64,000 bases of DNA, taken from the IMG/VR virus record IMGVR_UViG_3300040811_000439, positions 1-64,000 of that record; one strand, written 5' to 3'. Under the pieces are notes generated by a model. That model made no database searches. It had not been told where the DNA came from and saw only the letters and a program-made list of their open reading frames with translations. Every line of letters begins with the position of its first letter. Position 1 is the stretch's first letter. Source of the DNA: a virus. Made by a program: the position numbers and the translations under genes. This document shows positions 54,718 to 64,000 of the stretch, in pieces.

Positions 54718-54749
54718 CGAACACCTTCCTAGGTATTTATATACCCATA

Positions 54750-59498: not shown

Positions 59499-59822
59499 TT
59501 AGTGTTTTTCGATCCAGGAATTAAATGCTTGTAATGCTTCCTGTGGTTTTACATATGGACTTAATTTTAGACTTTCTACTTCTGAGTAAAAATCTTGTGG
59601 ATAGAATCTATCATTGTACTCAAATCCACCTGAACGTTCAAACTTAAAAACATCGTAATCTACTTTACGATTGTCATCATAGTCATGTTCTGTCATACCA
59701 AGAGCATAGACTTCGCCGTTCTTTTCAACTTTAGTTACTAATCTAAAGTCTCTACCAGCGACAAACTCCATGCCTGTGCGTTCAAGCATAGTAATTGTAT
59801 TTCTAATATCTTGTGCTGTCAT
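59499..59822 (-). CDS. Hypothetical protein, probable internal head protein
   Basis: GATAAATA just upstream; N-terminus MTAQDIRNTITMLE. Confidence 0.5.
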   Translation of the reverse strand: MTAQDIRNTITMLERTGMEFVAGRDFRLVTKVEKNGEVYALGMTEHDYDDNRKVDYDVFKFERSGGFEYNDRFYPQDFYSEVESLKLSPYVKPQEALQAFNSWIEKH

Positions 59823-59836
59823 AACAATGTATTTAT

Positions 59837-60136
59837 CTAACGCTCTACAATCTCTACAACAAGGTCTGTAGTGCCTTTGAGAATACGATGATAGGTGTTT
59901 TTTGTTATATTGATACTATCACCAGGTTTTAAGGTAATAGGTAGTTGGTTATCCATCTGCAAGCGCCAACCTTCGCCTTCAACTATAGTTACATGGCGAT
60001 CATTACGATCTCTGTGCCAAACAAGCTCTTCGCTATCAACTTCTAATGAAAATGTTCTTATTATACTTTTTTGATTGCGTAATTCACTATATGGGTGTAG
60101 GCGTCCAGCTTCTGCCCACCATGGGTTTACCACCAT
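59837..60136 (-). CDS. Small cupin-domain protein
   Basis: WHRD..DR...VEG.GW.LQ.D...P..L..GD...I...YHR. Confidence 0.65.
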   Translation of the reverse strand: MVVNPWWAEAGRLHPYSELRNQKSIIRTFSLEVDSEELVWHRDRNDRHVTIVEGEGWRLQMDNQLPITLKPGDSINITKNTYHRILKGTTDLVVEIVER

Positions 60137-61590
60137 GCTCCGCCTTTGACACCAAGTGCTTTATAACGTGGTGTGCGGCATGCCCAGTAACCTGCTTTCA
60201 TCTTGTCGTTCTTTTGCTTACACTTGTGACGTGCTACAAATGAACGCACTGCGCCTCTGTCTTTGGCTTTTACGCTTAGTCCTGATGTATCGCCCCAACT
60301 GATTTTCTTAACACGACCAGTCTTTGGATTCTTTACATATACATAGAACTTCTTAGGACCGCCACGTTTAGGTGAGTTTAGTTTAACTTTGCGTCCCTGG
60401 TACTCTGCTTCATCAAGCTCAACTTCTTCACCGATTAAATTTAAGATATATTCTTTTGGGTCTGTGTCTAATCCCATTGCATATTTCATTGCACCAGACT
60501 TGTCGCCCCTTTTCAACATTGCGGCGACCTTCATCATATCTTTTTTGTCTACACCACCAAACTTATTAGCATATGCTTCAAGTTCTTGGCCTTTTCTTTC
60601 AAACCTTGGTTTGTTTGCTTGCATCGTCGTATTTTTCATCTTACCTTCATCAAGGTCAACTTCTTCCGTCTTCATACCCAACATTTTACCAATCTTAACC
60701 ATACTCTCTTGACCACTTGATGTAACTCTGTCATATTCGTATCCATACATGTCATCAAATGCTTTTCTGGCATCTTTTATACTTTTTGCCTTAATGAGTT
60801 TATCTAAAGATTCTTGACCGCTGGGTGTCATACGCTTGCGCTCAAACTCAAGATCATCAATATGTTTTTTTATTTGATTGAGATTTTCATCAAGTGATGA
60901 TTCTTTTAATTTCTTAATCTCATAAGCGTCAACATCTAATGCTTGAAGTGCCGCGATCTTTTTGTCAAATGATCTCTTTGCATCGATCATTTTCATATGG
61001 GCAGCATCACCAGGAGTATTTTTCAACTTAGCAATTTTTGCTTTAAGAGCAACTGCCTGCTTTTTGATATCAAAGGCTTTAGCAGCGTTAGCAACTGTTA
61101 CTTCATCAAGCTCAACTTCTTCTTTTTGGGTTTTAATCCAATTAATAGCATCTCTTTTACTACCAACTGTCCTATCCCATTCCCAATTGCCTCTGTCCTT
61201 TACATAAATTTGCCATTCACCAGATGGTCGATCATTGCGATTTAATCGTGGTGTTAATTTATATTCTGTTTTACCCTGCTTCATTGTGTAAGCACCAGGT
61301 TCTCCTAGAACTTTTTTGGCCATTTCATCAAGTTCAACTTCTTCGATAGGAACATCAAGAGGAACACGCTCGCCCTCTACCATAATGCATTCGCCAATAT
61401 CTGTATCAAGTAGTTCAGCATCCTGCCAGTCTAGGTCCAGGCTTTCACGCATCTCACGCACACGAGTATAAAACTCTGTAAATGCTGCACTACCAGGACG
61501 GAACATGCATTCACTAAAAGGAACGCCACGAGCAATATGTTCTCGAATTGCTTCTTCAACTGGATTTCTTTTTAGATCACTTGCTTTCAT
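60127..61590 (-). CDS. Modular polyprotein-like protein (probable internal head protein) with EEVELDE linkers
   Basis: Five EEVELDE-like motifs spaced 72-80 aa apart; basic C-terminal module. Confidence 0.7.
   Translation of the reverse strand: MKASDLKRNPVEEAIREHIARGVPFSECMFRPGSAAFTEFYTRVREMRESLDLDWQDAELLDTDIGECIMVEGERVPLDVPIEEVELDEMAKKVLGEPGAYTMKQGKTEYKLTPRLNRNDRPSGEWQIYVKDRGNWEWDRTVGSKRDAINWIKTQKEEVELDEVTVANAAKAFDIKKQAVALKAKIAKLKNTPGDAAHMKMIDAKRSFDKKIAALQALDVDAYEIKKLKESSLDENLNQIKKHIDDLEFERKRMTPSGQESLDKLIKAKSIKDARKAFDDMYGYEYDRVTSSGQESMVKIGKMLGMKTEEVDLDEGKMKNTTMQANKPRFERKGQELEAYANKFGGVDKKDMMKVAAMLKRGDKSGAMKYAMGLDTDPKEYILNLIGEEVELDEAEYQGRKVKLNSPKRGGPKKFYVYVKNPKTGRVKKISWGDTSGLSVKAKDRGAVRSFVARHKCKQKNDKMKAGYWACRTPRYKALGVKGGAWW
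60409..61344 (-). repeat. Five dispersed 21-bp in-frame direct repeats (+ strand TTCATCAAGCTCAACTTCTTC)
   Basis: Copies at 60409-60429 and 61102-61122 (identical), 60646-60666 and 61324-61344 (1 mismatch each), 60886-60906 (degenerate); spacings 237, 240, 216, 222 bp. Confidence 0.9.
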
Positions 61591-61841
61591 TTTGTTCTTA
61601 CATTCCTAGCTTTACCGCGTCTGTTCTTTTTAGGATCTTCTCTGCGCTTTCTACTCGCTGCGGTAGCACGTTTCTTTTTGCCTAGTGCATGTGCTTTCTT
61701 CTGAGGTAAACATTTGGGCTTGCCTTCACTGTCATCATCTCTAGCACAATCTCCGCGTATCTTACCGTCAGGCCCAAAGCGTACCCATTTCTCTTTGAAC
61801 CATTTGCGTAAATCGTCTTGTACAATCTCCTCGACTAACAT
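61587..61841 (-). CDS. Small basic protein
   Basis: LRKWFKEKWV...C.R....KPKCLP; K/R-rich tail. Confidence 0.7.
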   Translation of the reverse strand: MLVEEIVQDDLRKWFKEKWVRFGPDGKIRGDCARDDDSEGKPKCLPQKKAHALGKKKRATAASRKRREDPKKNRRGKARNVRTK

Positions 61842-62032
61842 TACTTCTTACTCTTATTACCCCAGTTCTTAGCACCAACTTTACGGCACTTTACAAGAGC
61901 ACCACTAGCGTAAGCACTTGGCCATACTTTGTAACGTGATTTAACTTTGTGATAGCAGGCATCTTTCTCACCTGCCGCTTCATCAAATTCAGCTTCAGTG
62001 ATTGCTTTTGCTGTGAATTCTGAAGATCGCAT
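61841..62032 (-). CDS. Small basic protein with acidic leader
   Basis: MRSSEF..AITEAEFDE then KDACYHKVKSRYKVWPSAYASGALVKCRK. Confidence 0.7.
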   Translation of the reverse strand: MRSSEFTAKAITEAEFDEAAGEKDACYHKVKSRYKVWPSAYASGALVKCRKVGAKNWGNKSKK

Positions 62033-62037
62033 GAGGA

Positions 62038-62484
62038 TTACTCCTCTTCAACTTTATCTTTAATTACATCAACATGACCTTGAATGTAGTCATGTTCATC
62101 TTCCATGCCCATCATTTCAGCCATCATCATGATCTGATCAGCAACTACCTGTGCCATTACAGCATCTTCTGGTACGTGCTTACGATCTGGATCCTTTTCC
62201 ATGTAGAATAGAACATCCTGTAACTTAGCTGTACGAACAGCAAGCTCATCATGATCAATCTTTTTATATAATGCTGTTGCGCCTGGGCACATATCAAAGT
62301 GACGTGTTTGGTAGTCGCCTACCATAAGTTCACCTGTATCTGGATCGTTATTAGGATCGTCATCCTCTCCTACTAAACGATCTTGAAATGGGTGAGGGTT
62401 GCCGCCTGTTTTACGAGCTTTTTCCTTGCCCTTAACTTGATCTACATATTCATCAAGTTGATCTAGTAGTTTACGAAAATCCAT
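62038..62484 (-). CDS. Hypothetical protein, probable internal head protein
   Basis: Leader MDFRKLLDQLDE. Confidence 0.6.
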   Translation of the reverse strand: MDFRKLLDQLDEYVDQVKGKEKARKTGGNPHPFQDRLVGEDDDPNNDPDTGELMVGDYQTRHFDMCPGATALYKKIDHDELAVRTAKLQDVLFYMEKDPDRKHVPEDAVMAQVVADQIMMMAEMMGMEDEHDYIQGHVDVIKDKVEEE

Positions 62485-63086
62485 TAGTCTTCCTTTGGTG
62501 GGTTGCTATACATATGTGCTTCTTCTAGAGCTTCCATAGCTTCAATTAGTTTTTGATGTGCATCTGCAATCCATGCAGCATCACCGCCTTCACGTTCTAC
62601 CATTTTACTAAGCACTGCACCTTCTGCTGTAACTTTCATAAGACGGCCCATCATATTAAACATCTTTTGAAAACTATCATCGATTGCTGTTGCAGAACTT
62701 GTGGCTTCTTTAACTGCGCTATCAACTGTGGTTAGATCATTACCCTGTGCTACTTCACTCTTCATAAAGTCACGATATCGACTAGCAATATCACCTAGCA
62801 CATCTTCGTTAGCTTTGTCTTCAGCTACAGATTCCTTCTTGGCTTTCTTGTCAGCGGCAGCCTTCTTCATGGATTCTTCTTTATCGCCATCGCCATCTAA
62901 ATCAATATAGTCTGGCTTTGCTGCTTCTTCAAGTTCATTAAACACCTTTAGAATGTTTACTGTTTCGCGTGTTCCAGAGACTGCTTCCTCAACTGGCTTG
63001 TAAACAGTATCGCCTGTTGCACTTACTGTTTCCTCGTTATTTGAGATTGCATTTAGTTTTTTAACTAGATCGGTAAAGTCACTCAT
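62484..63086 (-). CDS. Hypothetical protein, probable internal head protein
   Basis: Leader MSDFTDLVKKLNAISNNEE; KPDYIDLDGDGDKEESMKKAA motif. Confidence 0.6.
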   Translation of the reverse strand: MSDFTDLVKKLNAISNNEETVSATGDTVYKPVEEAVSGTRETVNILKVFNELEEAAKPDYIDLDGDGDKEESMKKAAADKKAKKESVAEDKANEDVLGDIASRYRDFMKSEVAQGNDLTTVDSAVKEATSSATAIDDSFQKMFNMMGRLMKVTAEGAVLSKMVEREGGDAAWIADAHQKLIEAMEALEEAHMYSNPPKED

Positions 63087-63835
63087 GATCTACTCCAATC
63101 GCTAAATTTACTTTCAGCTTTCATATTCTTTTTGTTTTGATCTGCTACACGCTTGCTAAACTCTGCATCTAAACCTTTTGTACGATCACGTTCCATACCT
63201 GGGTCTTTCTTTGTAGGCACTGGGGGCTTTGTCTTTGGCTTAGGTACACTAGTAACATTTTTTACAAGGGTGTTCATTGCCTTACGATCTGCATCGCTAT
63301 ATTCTTCAATTTCTATAGATTCAACAAGTCCTAGTTCTTTTGCGACCTGATATCTCATCTGATCTAATGTGCCAGGCTCGATGTCTCTGATGTCTTTGCC
63401 CATGTCGTAAATTTTTCTACGAAGAACATTATCAATTTTACTTGCGGCGGCGCTGCCCAATTTGTCGGCATCATTGTAGCCCATTCTGTATTCTTTAACA
63501 GTTTCTTTGCTTTCACTGGCAAGATCAAATGCCATGTCATCCATCTGTTCAGCTTGGGCGTTTTCAGGATTCATTGGGCTCATCTCATAATCCATGTTGT
63601 GATATACACTGCTTAGATAGTCAGCAGCCTTGGTAATCTTTGCCTGCTGCCACCCTTCAATACCTTGCATCTCACTTACGCCTTTAAGCATATCATGTAG
63701 CTTAATTGCATACTTGGCAATCTTGTACAAGTCTGCACGTGCCATTTGAACTTCATGATCGAGTTCAACACGGTCTGCCATCATACCAAGATGACCTTCG
63801 TTAATTTGGTTTAGTTTGTCAAGTATGTCTCTCAT
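63083..63835 (-). CDS. Hypothetical protein, probable internal head protein
   Basis: Leader MRDILDKLNQINE; DHEVQMARADL, W.QAKITKAADYL. Confidence 0.6.
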   Translation of the reverse strand: MRDILDKLNQINEGHLGMMADRVELDHEVQMARADLYKIAKYAIKLHDMLKGVSEMQGIEGWQQAKITKAADYLSSVYHNMDYEMSPMNPENAQAEQMDDMAFDLASESKETVKEYRMGYNDADKLGSAAASKIDNVLRRKIYDMGKDIRDIEPGTLDQMRYQVAKELGLVESIEIEEYSDADRKAMNTLVKNVTSVPKPKTKPPVPTKKDPGMERDRTKGLDAEFSKRVADQNKKNMKAESKFSDWSRS

Positions 63836-63836
63836 A

Positions 63837-64000
63837 TCAAATATCTCTAGATTGTGTTGAGCCGCTAAGTCTGCTCTGTCCGCGGGTGCTTCCTCTTGGG
63901 GCAGCTTGGCGTTTTTTGATCATTTTATTCACTGTATCCGCTTGCTGAGCTGAGTAGCCAGTAATCTCACCTGTTGTATTTGCTGCTGGTTTAGATGTAG
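63837..64000 (-). CDS. Partial CDS (start lies beyond the window)
   Basis: Open frame ...TSKPAANTTGEIT...STQSRDI* ending at 63837. Confidence 0.55.
   Translation of the reverse strand, partial: TSKPAANTTGEITGYSAQQADTVNKMIKKRQAAPRGSTRGQSRLSGSTQSRDI

What the first reader, a model, noticed from the sequence alone, without database searches (positions are those of the whole stretch)
60127..61590. Repeat-delimited cassette polyprotein: four unrelated ~70-aa modules joined by a 21-bp repeat encoding a prohead-protease-like site
Seen: one ORF contains five in-frame copies of a 21-bp repeat (EEVELDE, EEVELDE, KESSLDE, EEVDLDE, EEVELDE) at 216-240 bp spacing. The four intervening modules share no similarity with each other and look more A/T-rich than the flanks. 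Conservation extends to synonymous codon positions, so the DNA repeat itself seems maintained. Known: T4 prohead protease gp21 cleaves after Glu in (I/L)-x-E, and T4 internal head proteins are ejected into the host (IPI* blocks the GmrSD nuclease). Inference: this is an array of swappable mini-protein cargoes. The repeat would serve both as a recombination handle for gaining or losing cassettes and as the cleavage site that frees each cargo in the capsid for injection, for example as anti-defence peptides.
Basis: partly seen in the sequence, partly recalled or inferred. Interest (0 to 1): 0.88.

Follow-up and report, generated by a model that had tools for sequence, protein, structure and literature searches.

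The report
Swappable-cassette internal-protein precursor of a marine phage
This gene of a large marine T4-related phage strings four small unrelated basic protein cassettes between two conserved end domains, each joined by one standard 7-residue junction that relatives use to swap cassettes and that looks like a cutting site for the phage's head-maturation protease.

Summary
ORF 60127-61590 (-) encodes 487 aa with four near-identical 21-bp junctions (EEV[ED]LDE) and a fifth degenerate one (KESSLDE). They separate four unrelated basic modules of 65-73 aa that lie between a conserved N domain and a conserved C domain.

Relatives confirm cassette swapping. Close homologs (about 90-99% identity in N and C) carry zero, one, two or other cassettes. 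DNA breakpoints fall inside the repeat. Cassettes M1-M4 recur in other genes, nearly always flanked by the same junction. I counted at least 54 cassette families, nearly all net basic.

Cleavage and packaging are inferred, not shown. The residue before the C domain is Glu in 118 of 118 close homologs and 108 of 119 distant ones. A hydrophobic residue sits at P3 and Ala at P1', as at T4 gp21 sites (gp23 LTE|AE, IPIII IAE|A). Leaderless stand-alone copies in phages without this protease start exactly at that Ala.

Family N-termini resemble the T4 capsid-targeting sequence. In cyanophage S-SCSM1, homologs of two neighbouring genes are virion proteins found by mass spectrometry, and one contains EEVELDE.

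Verdict: a new variant of T4-type internal proteins and polyvalent proteins. Injection and anti-defence roles are untested.

The parts
61345..61590 (-). Leader (aa 1-9, MKASDLKRN; V-E-E at aa 11-13) plus the conserved acidic N domain (aa 10-82, net charge -10)
   Evidence: N domain found in 118 of 120 listed homologs. The AF2 model is helical with pLDDT 70-84 for residues 10-66. Close relatives start MRFTEF....
61324..61344 (-). Junction J1, EEVELDE
   Evidence: N-side homology with 74 homologs ends exactly at aa 89.
61123..61323 (-). Cassette M1 (aa 90-156, net +7)
   Evidence: Present alone between N and C in L004 and P0356, and in other proteins P0149 and P0151. No Pfam or PHROG family.
61102..61122 (-). 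Junction J2, EEVELDE
60907..61101 (-). Cassette M2 (aa 164-228, net +7)
   Evidence: Alone between N and C in P0357. Found in proteins without N or C: P0132, P0141, P0143, P0156.
60886..60906 (-). Junction J3, KESSLDE (degenerate copy, 14 of 21 bases)
   Evidence: It travels with M2 in relatives and is joined to different downstream modules.
60667..60885 (-). Cassette M3 (aa 236-308, net +3; internal two-fold repeat)
   Evidence: 97.6-98% nucleotide identity to a cassette in unrelated 536- and 689-aa genes (L013, L010). Alignment ends lie in J3 and J4.
60646..60666 (-). Junction J4, EEVDLDE
60430..60645 (-). Cassette M4 (aa 316-387, net +6), the most widespread cassette
   Evidence: Found in 77 of 95 cassette-bearing proteins (72 alone, 4 with M3, 1 with C). 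All 42 full-length copies are preceded by [LIV]-[DE]-E. A stand-alone 107-aa gene, P0358, also carries it.
60409..60429 (-). Junction J5, EEVELDE, directly before the C domain
   Evidence: C-side homology starts at aa 388 in 43 homologs.
60130..60408 (-). Conserved basic C domain (aa 395-487, net +22), phrog_7595
   Evidence: 3,386 representative clusters at E<=1e-3. AF2 pLDDT 86.7. No solved-structure match. Stand-alone copies start M-A-x-Y-x-G.
61587..64000 (-). Upstream neighbours of the same cluster: ORFs of 84, 63, 148, 200 and 250 aa, and the start of a 292-aa ORF. The cluster runs on to 69019 in the record, outside the window.
   Evidence: Their modules occur as inserts in homologs of this gene (P0022, P0112). 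phi-x-E lies in the first 20 aa in 10 of 12 cluster genes against 23 of 89 others. The 200-aa ORF shares a module with S-SCSM1 virion protein ORF92.

Best explanation
The gene encodes a precursor made of small basic proteins. It belongs to an internal-protein-like locus (60127-69019, - strand) of a large marine phage with a T4-type replication module; the genome is perhaps about 350 kb.

Shown: the protein is a string of independent units, N domain, four cassettes, C domain. The units are joined by a standard junction, EEV[ED]LDE. In this lineage the junction is kept nearly identical at the DNA level, and cassettes are gained, lost and moved between genes at it.

Inferred:
1. The junction's L-D-E, and the more general [LIVM]-x-E|A before the C domain, is a cleavage site for a T4 gp21-type (Peptidase S77) prohead protease.
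2. A short N-terminal leader of the T4 capsid-targeting type brings the precursor into the prohead core.
3. Maturation cuts the precursor into basic proteins of about 8 kDa that stay with the packaged DNA.
4. These are probably ejected into the next host, as T4 IPI-III and Alt are.

What each cassette does is unknown. Known domains found in the same family frame elsewhere (sigma-70 region 4, ART-PolyVal, Zeta and HicA toxins, Imm5) point to host-takeover or conflict functions.
For: **Architecture and swapping**
- 945 homologs were found among 8,000 scored candidates.
- Of the 118 listed homologs with both N and C, 42 have only a 7-9 aa linker and 76 have inserts of 68-324 aa.
- 80 inserts fall into 34 architectures.
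- Near-identical relatives form a series: N+C (L005), N+M1+C (L004, P0356), N+M2+C (P0357), N+sigma70_r4+C (L016, P0012).
- The window gene against L005 behaves as a precise deletion between J1 and J5, with the two alignments overlapping inside the repeat.
- M3 is 97.6-98% identical in DNA to a cassette in unrelated genes, while N and C are 90-97% identical to their relatives.
- 89 of 95 cassette-bearing proteins lack both N and C.
- 153 cassettes are bounded by strict junctions, with a median of 72 aa. They form at least 54 families, and 51 of 54 representatives are net basic.

**Site**
- P1 is Glu in 118 of 118 close homologs, and P3 is hydrophobic in 117 of 118, whatever module lies upstream.
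- In 119 mapped sequences out of 141 distant representatives, P1 is E in 108, P3 is LIVMF in 99 and P1' is A in 104, while P2 and the codons vary.
- Stand-alone C domains in four viruses start M-A-x-Y-x-G, so phi-x-E lies outside the fold.
- T4 reads gp23 FLTE(65)|AEIGG, IPII and IPIII FIAE|A, IPI ITE|A.
- T4 processing depends on CTS residues 8 and 10 and is C-terminal to Glu (PMC9026906 and PMC5694885, passages).

**Leader**
- The leader M-R-A-N-E-F-I-T-E is common in the family, with the first phi-x-E ending at residue 9 in 74 of 120 homologs.
- phi-x-E lies within 20 aa of the start in 187 of 236 unique N-termini, against 93 of 231 internal control windows.
- Cyanophage locus genes start MKSYNEFISE, MKKFSAFLKE|A and MKSFLQFLKE|A.

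**Protease**
- S77 is present in 8 of 8 related complete genomes tested and absent from 4 of 4 viruses with leaderless copies.

**Virion evidence**
- S-SCSM1 NMNAT (45.7% identical to the N-terminal domain of the neighbouring 907-aa gene, E 6e-41) and its ORF92 are virion proteins found by mass spectrometry. ORF92 shares a module with the window's 200-aa ORF and contains KEEVELDE|R.
- The S-CREM2 cytidylyltransferase is also in the virion proteome.
Against: - No cleavage or packaging data exist for this protein or for any protein with the N or C domain.
- The record is a fragment (CheckV 21%). No S77 protease or capsid gene could be found in the fragments of four close relatives, and the window's own record was not searched for it. 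The protease is therefore assumed from more distant relatives.
- The window protein's own leader (MKASDLKRNPVEE) fits the T4 pattern poorly.
- The gene sits beside DNA polymerase, not head genes.
- T4-type late-promoter words are not enriched.
- These proteins are Glu-rich, so phi-x-E is common by chance (40% of internal 20-aa windows).
- An acidic flexible linker kept uniform by recombination would explain the DNA repeat without any protease.
- The S-CREM2 authors themselves note that abundant proteins may co-purify with virions.
- In the PA5oct-like phage Ettore, from the group with the closest DNA polymerase, the cytidyltransferase has no such leader.
Confidence: 0.55

Rival explanations
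1. An uncleaved multidomain 'beads on a string' protein made in the infected cell. EEVELDE is only an acidic flexible linker. Its DNA uniformity comes from frequent recombination or gene conversion that shuffles domains. It is neither packaged nor cut.
For: The DNA repeat and the breakpoints need no protease. The gene lies in a replication-gene neighbourhood. Late-promoter words are not enriched. RNA-library contigs show only that the locus is present in RNA libraries. No cleavage data exist.
Against: It does not explain why Glu at P1, a hydrophobic P3 and Ala at P1' persist before the C domain in distant homologs whose linkers share no DNA or other residues. It does not explain the T4-CTS-like leaders. 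It does not explain why a stand-alone cassette gene keeps both junctions (P0358). It does not explain the virion detection of homologs of locus genes.
Confidence: 0.28
2. The protein is a prohead core or scaffold-type substrate, like T4 gp22, gp67 and gp68. It is targeted and cut by the protease, but the fragments are expelled or serve only in DNA condensation. They would not be delivered effectors.
For: The same site and leader evidence as for the best explanation. T4 core proteins are cut at several L/I-x-E sites (PMC5694885, passages; T4 gp22, gp67 and gp68 N-termini). The uniformly basic charge fits DNA binding.
Against: T4 gp22 and gp67 as read are rich in acidic residues (my reading by eye, no charge count was made), whereas the cassettes are basic. 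The extreme cassette diversity (at least 54 families) and the conflict-type domains in the same frame (Sigma70_r4, ART-PolyVal, Zeta_toxin, HicA, Imm5) fit variable effectors better than a structural role.
Confidence: 0.12
3. The cassette array is an assembly artefact, produced by mis-joining metagenome reads at the 21-bp repeat.
For: The record is metagenome-derived and the repeat is shared by many genes.
Against: 14 DNA runs hold at least 98% of the sampled words. Contigs from two runs span the junctions in the same order. RNA-library contigs cross J1, J3 and J5. An identical protein stands in the protein collection (P0006), though it may come from the same sample as the window.
Confidence: 0.02

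Closest known systems
T4 internal proteins IPI, IPII, IPIII (and Alt), with the capsid-targeting sequence and gp21 processing
   Same: Small basic proteins. A short N-terminal leader of the form M-[KR]-x-[FY]-x-x-[FY]-[IL]-x-E|A occurs in family members and locus homologs. The site is [LI]-x-E|A. The content is hypervariable between related phages while only the targeting and processing signals are conserved (PMC3012670 and PMC9026906, passages).
   Different: Here several cargoes are strung in one ORF and separated by a standard internal junction. The junction is also conserved as DNA and serves as the exchange boundary. There is no sequence similarity to IPI-III. Packaging and cleavage have not been shown.
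Polyvalent proteins of phages and conjugative elements (Iyer et al. 2017, PMC5512222; abstract and passages)
   Same: Many unrelated domains in one phage polypeptide. They are proposed to be delivered with the DNA and processed into units. ART-PolyVal occurs in 2 of 141 representatives that bear the C domain.
   Different: Those proteins are large, carry their own zincin-like peptidase and hold known enzyme domains. No standard junction repeat is described in the passages I read: the word 'linker' has 0 occurrences in that paper. Here the units are about 70 aa, mostly of no known family, and the presumed protease acts in trans.
Head and ejection proteins of giant phages (SPN3US, phiKZ, 201phi2-1) cut by the prohead protease
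   Same: Many internal head proteins are cut C-terminal to Glu at a three-residue motif, some at several sites (PMC5694885, passages).
   Different: The motif there is A/S-x-E. The propeptides are long. Cassette arrays and shared DNA junctions are not reported in the passages I read.
Cyanophage virion-associated NMNAT/cytidylyltransferase locus (S-SCSM1, S-CREM2)
   Same: It is homologous to the neighbouring 907-aa gene and to the window's 200-aa ORF. The proteins were detected in virions by mass spectrometry. The leader is MKSFLQFLKE|A, and EEVELDE occurs inside ORF92.
   Different: Those papers read the enzyme as a carried metabolic protein. In the passages I read they do not mention leaders, cleavage sites or cassettes. 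The N and C domains of this gene were not found in cyanophages.
Precursor peptides with variable cores between conserved protease recognition sequences (cyanobactin PatE type), and integron or shufflon cassette systems. Recalled analogies, not tested here.
   Same: Variable cassettes sit between conserved flanks that serve processing or recombination.
   Different: Different molecules, enzymes and scale. No site-specific recombinase is implied here.

Membership tests
T4-type capsid-targeted internal protein | N-terminal leader of about 10-20 aa, with aromatic or hydrophobic residues at positions 4 and 7 and [LI]-x-E at its end | tested here: inconclusive
   Met in many family members (MRANEFITE, first site ending at residue 9 in 74 of 120) and in locus homologs in cyanophages, compared with T4 IPs read. 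The window protein itself starts MKASDLKRNPVEE, a weak fit, with V-E-E at residues 11-13.
T4-type capsid-targeted internal protein | A gp21-type (Peptidase S77) prohead protease in the same genome | not testable with these tools
   The record is a 72.9-kb fragment. There were 0 of 4 hits in relatives' fragments, and the window's own record was not searched for the family. S77 is present in 8 of 8 related complete genomes, including the PA5oct-like phage Ettore.
T4-type capsid-targeted internal protein | Cleavage C-terminal to Glu at [LI]-x-E | not testable with these tools
   The sequence pattern is present at all five junctions and is conserved before the C domain. No proteomic data could be seen; supplements are closed.
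T4-type capsid-targeted internal protein | Small basic mature products present in the virion | tested here: inconclusive
   The basic charge and the size of about 8 kDa are met. Virion presence is shown only for homologs of two neighbouring genes in S-SCSM1 and S-CREM2.
Polyvalent proteins (Iyer et al. 2017) | 2-15 unrelated domains in one polypeptide of a phage or mobile element | tested here: met
   Six unrelated units. Relatives have up to eight strict junctions.
Polyvalent proteins (Iyer et al. 2017) | Signature domains (zincin-like MPTase, ART, DdrB-ParB, LPDs and others) | tested here: not met
   No Pfam family matches any unit of the window protein. ART-PolyVal is found only in 2 of 141 distant representatives.
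phrog_7595 / C-domain family | Profile match over the whole domain | tested here: met
   E 2.9e-12 over profile positions 9-93 of 96. 3,386 representative clusters.

The most novel reading that the evidence does not exclude
Large marine T4-related phages keep a combinatorial library of at least 54 families of proteins of about 70 aa that are delivered in the capsid. One standard in-frame 21-bp junction does two jobs. As DNA it is the homology handle that lets any cassette move in frame between any carrier gene or phage. As peptide it is the prohead-protease site that frees each cassette inside the head for ejection into the host. That would be a plug-and-play system for evolving host-takeover and counter-defence cargo.
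Probability: 0.4. Interest if true: 0.9.

Novelty: new variant of a known kind. Interest (0 to 1): 0.8.

Why it matters
T4 internal proteins are the textbook case of proteins injected with phage DNA to defeat host defences, but outside the coliphages almost nothing is known about them.

If this reading holds, abundant marine phages carry a large and fast-shuffling repertoire of such cargo, and the cargo can be recognised from sequence alone (leader, phi-x-E junctions, basic 70-aa units). That would:
- give hundreds of uncharacterised 'hypothetical' proteins a location and a time of action;
- offer a ready list of candidate host-takeover or anti-defence proteins for marine bacteria;
- show a simple genetic design, a shared in-frame junction, for exchanging protein modules.

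It also gives an explanation for why NMNAT/cytidylyltransferase proteins keep turning up in cyanophage virion proteomes.

Tried and rejected
**Searches that found nothing**
- Megablast of 59500-63900 against phages: no match.
- Pfam and PHROGs on M1-M4 and on N: nothing usable. The whole-protein V-SNARE hit (E 0.017) is below the cut-off and was rejected.
- PDB sequence search: only ParB at E 0.39, rejected.
- Atlas search on the N domain: no feature hit.
- S77 in four fragmentary relatives' records: none. These records are 14-33% complete, so this is no evidence of absence.
- PF18760 in T4, Melnitz, immuto, HTVC008M and C48C1: none, so I dropped a link to T4 Alt.

**Structure work**
- The AF2 model of the natural N+C protein had mean pLDDT 49.8; only N residues 10-66 are usable, so I make no claim about N-C contacts.
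- The C-domain model is good, but Foldseek against the PDB gave no hit at E<=0.001 and VIA-wide gave none at Z>=2. BFVD gave only uncharacterised phage proteins, two of them fused to parts named ChaB and XkdF; I did not follow that lead.
- Alignment A2 for a full-length fold put non-homologous inserts onto the cassettes. I did not fold the full protein or the cassettes, so the state of the junctions (exposed or not) is untested.

**Weak or uninformative results**
- T4 late-promoter words: TATAAATA occurs 3 times and ATAAATA 8 times on the - strand, about or below my rough chance estimate, so I read nothing from them.
- Read laying: three 'joints' between junction copies have sides of only 20-25 letters, so they are repeat matches and not proof of variants. 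Presence in RNA libraries does not prove transcription.
- I could not tell which representatives carry ART-PolyVal or the toxin domains, because the tool gives tallies only.

**Literature**
- No mention of this architecture in the passages I searched in the Melnitz paper, the pelagimyophage paper or the structural-variant paper.
- A full-text search for EEVELDE or EEVDLDE gave one unrelated food-science paper.
- 'Cyanophage' plus 'capsid targeting sequence' gave only the T4 review.
- The search was unproductive.
- Supplementary tables of the S-SCSM1 and S-CREM2 papers, which may hold peptide lists that bear on cleavage, are closed.
Full report
**What is there**

The window holds a 487-aa ORF on the - strand (60127-61590). 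Four copies of a 21-mer (GAAGAAGTTGAGCTTGATGAA, 0-1 mismatch) lie in frame at 61324, 61102, 60646 and 60409. None is expected by chance, and there is no other copy in the 72,888-bp record. A fifth, degenerate copy (KESSLDE, 14 of 21 bases) lies at 60886.

The copies cut the protein into these units:
- a 9-aa leader;
- an acidic N domain (aa 10-82, net charge -10);
- four cassettes of 65-73 aa (net +3 to +7) with no similarity to each other;
- a very basic C domain (aa 395-487, net +22).

The cassettes have lower GC than N and C (35-38% against 46%), but GC3 is similar. The A/T-richness therefore comes from Lys-rich composition. From the record's codon usage, the shared synonymous codons of the four copies have a probability of about 6e-6, so the copies share descent.

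The order of the units is not an assembly artefact. Contigs of other runs span it, and RNA-library contigs cross J1, J3 and J5.

**What kind of phage**

The record is a fragment (CheckV 21% complete) with a family-B DNA polymerase just downstream. That polymerase is closest, at 58% identity, to PA5oct-like jumbo phages. Several small modules of the cluster are up to 98% identical to proteins of T4-like cyanophages.

The gene ends a run of 12 co-oriented genes (60127-69019). At the head of the run is a 907-aa multi-module protein that starts with a cytidylyltransferase domain. In phage Melnitz, the cytidylyltransferase, other modules and the N and C domains are all fused in one 650-aa protein.

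**Cassettes are swapped**

A protein search gave 945 homologs among 8,000 scored candidates.
- Of the 120 listed, 118 have both N and C.
- 42 of these 118 have only a 7-9 aa linker between N and C, and 76 have inserts of 68-324 aa.
- With locus-derived proteins added, 80 inserts fall into 34 architectures.

Close relatives, about 90-99% identical in N and C, form a series:
- N+C (L005);
- N+M1+C (L004, P0356);
- N+M2+C (P0357);
- N plus other cassettes plus C (L006-L009, L015);
- N plus a sigma-70 region 4 domain plus C (L016, P0012).

At the DNA level, the window gene and L005 differ by a clean deletion between J1 and J5, and the two alignments overlap inside the repeat. M3 is 97.6-98% identical to a cassette in unrelated 536- and 689-aa genes, and the alignment ends lie in J3 and J4. 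Six of the seven junctions in L010 are the same 21-mer.

A search with the cassette region alone found 96 proteins. Of the 95 I analysed, leaving out the identical P0006, 89 have neither N nor C. All 42 full-length M4 copies are preceded by [LIV]-[DE]-E, and 32 of the 42 are followed by a junction.

Over 209 proteins I counted 153 cassettes bounded by strict junctions. The median length is 72 aa (interquartile range 63-78). They form at least 54 families, and 51 of the 54 representatives are net basic.

A 107-aa gene, P0358, holds M4 alone and still has a junction on both sides.

**Is the junction more than a recombination handle?**

Before the C domain, P1 is Glu in 118 of 118 close homologs and P3 is hydrophobic in 117 of 118, whatever module lies upstream.

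The C domain is a large viral family, with 3,386 representative clusters at E<=1e-3. Among the 141 representatives newly fetched from the 150 listed (nine were already held under earlier ids and were left out), the domain is C-terminal in 136. In the 119 whose start could be mapped, P1 is E in 108, P3 is L, I, V, M or F in 99, and P1' is A in 104. P2, the residues further upstream and the codons all vary.

Stand-alone copies in a pelagipodophage, a pelagiphage, a roseophage and a Nitrosopumilaceae virus start M-A-x-Y-x-G. The fold therefore begins at that Ala, and phi-x-E lies outside it. Those four viruses have no S77 protease. All eight related complete genomes I tested have one, with T4 as positive control: Melnitz, immuto, HTVC008M, C48C1, Ettore, S-SCSM1, S-RIM8 and P-SSM4.

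The pattern equals T4 gp21 sites as read from the T4 record:
- gp23 FLTE(65)|AEIGG;
- IPII and IPIII FIAE|A;
- IPI ITE|A.

The literature agrees: cleavage is C-terminal to Glu, CTS residues 8 and 10 are needed for processing and residues 4 and 7 for targeting (PMC9026906 and PMC5694885, passages). The explicit (L/I)-x-E consensus is recalled textbook knowledge.

**Leaders**

Most family members start M-R-A-[NS]-[ED]-F-I-T-E. phi-x-E falls within the first 20 residues in 187 of 236 unique N-termini, against 93 of 231 internal control windows. In the record, 10 of 12 cluster genes have it, against 23 of 89 other ORFs (p = 2e-4).

Cyanophage genes of the homologous locus start MKSYNEFISE (7 of 10 residues as in T4 MKTYQEFIAE), MKKFSAFLKE|A and MLSFKAYLAE.

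The window protein's own leader, MKASDLKRNPVEE, is a weak example.

**Virion evidence from print**

S-SCSM1 NMNAT (ORF91) was detected in virions by mass spectrometry, and the authors note that NMNAT-like proteins are detected often in cyanophage virions (PMC9602691, passages). The S-CREM2 cytidylyltransferase is in that phage's virion proteome table (PMC10665884, passages).

ORF91 is 45.7% identical (E 6e-41) to the first domain of the 907-aa neighbour, and it starts MKSFLQFLKE|A. The adjacent ORF92, annotated 'virion protein', shares a module with the window's 200-aa ORF (E 1e-8) and contains KEEVELDE|R.

This places homologs of two cluster genes in virions. It does not place this protein there.

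**Function of the units**

No unit of the window protein matches a Pfam family. The C domain folds with confidence (pLDDT 86.7) but matches no solved structure.

Representatives that bear the C domain carry the following domains in the same protein: Sigma70_r4, ART-PolyVal (2 of 141), Zeta_toxin, HicA_toxin, Imm5, cREC_REC, cytidylyltransferase and DUF5824. This repertoire is like that of polyvalent proteins (PMC5512222, passages).

**Verdict**

The architecture and the swapping are shown. The junction as a protease site and the capsid packaging are the best-supported reading (about 0.55) but remain inferred. Ejection and counter-defence are untested.

I found no description of this design in the papers and full-text searches named under Tried and rejected. 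It is best filed as a new variant of T4-type internal proteins and polyvalent proteins.

Noticed in passing
G000 66296-69019 (-), outside the window; locus L036 2497-5220: A 907-aa multi-module protein. It has a cytidylyltransferase domain (phrog_3041, E 2e-49), then a domain that occurs twice (phrog_6387, two stretches), then further modules. Several unit starts follow phi-x-E|A/G (for example VNE|AFDSPY and LEE|AFDTKV). By eye one stretch looks ParB-like; this was not tested.
   Followed up: partly
G000 65521-66294 (-), outside the window: A class 3 lipase (PF01764, E 6e-18) sits inside the same cluster. It starts MSITTMEFKE.
   Followed up: partly
window 61841-62032 (-): This 63-aa ORF (MRSSEFTAKAITE AEFDE AAGEKDACY...) matches 366 phage records, mostly T4-like cyanophages, at up to 97.7% identity. 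The DNA polymerase of the same record is only 58% identical to its best relatives, the PA5oct-like phages. Small modules seem to move across phage families.
   Followed up: partly
window 60667-60885 (-), cassette M3: An internal two-fold repeat within the cassette (TPSGQESLDKLIKAK... and TSSGQESMVKIGKML...).
   Followed up: no
window 54734-54741 (-) and G000 69024-69031 (-): The T4 late-promoter word TATAAATA lies 17 nt upstream of the 312-aa gene that follows the DNA polymerase, and 5 nt upstream of the 907-aa gene. There are only 3 copies on this strand and none on the other, so there is no enrichment overall.
   Followed up: partly
window 59837-60136 (-): A 99-aa ORF with a near-threshold cupin match (Cupin_2, E 5e-6, 26.5 bits against a 27.2-bit cut-off) overlaps the end of the cassette gene by 10 bases.
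   Followed up: no
related proteins P0012-P0014, L015-L018: In close relatives the insert between N and C is a sigma-70 region 4 domain (PF08281 E 1.8e-10, PF04545 E 2e-8). It could be a transcription-directed cargo.
   Followed up: partly
whole record G000: CheckV puts the 72.9-kb record at 21% complete, and relatives' contigs of 105-108 kb at 29-31%. This implies a genome of roughly 350 kb, a marine jumbo phage lineage with no cultured close relative in the phage collection (no megablast match).
   Followed up: partly
locus L029 (phage C48C1) 2947-3264: A minimal T4-like-phage form of the C-domain gene: MKKFKQYIDE GCCEACKSLDEELELTE|AEYQG... It has a 10-aa leader with aromatic residues at positions 4 and 7, I at 8 and E at 10, then a Cys-rich 17-mer, then the domain.
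   Followed up: partly
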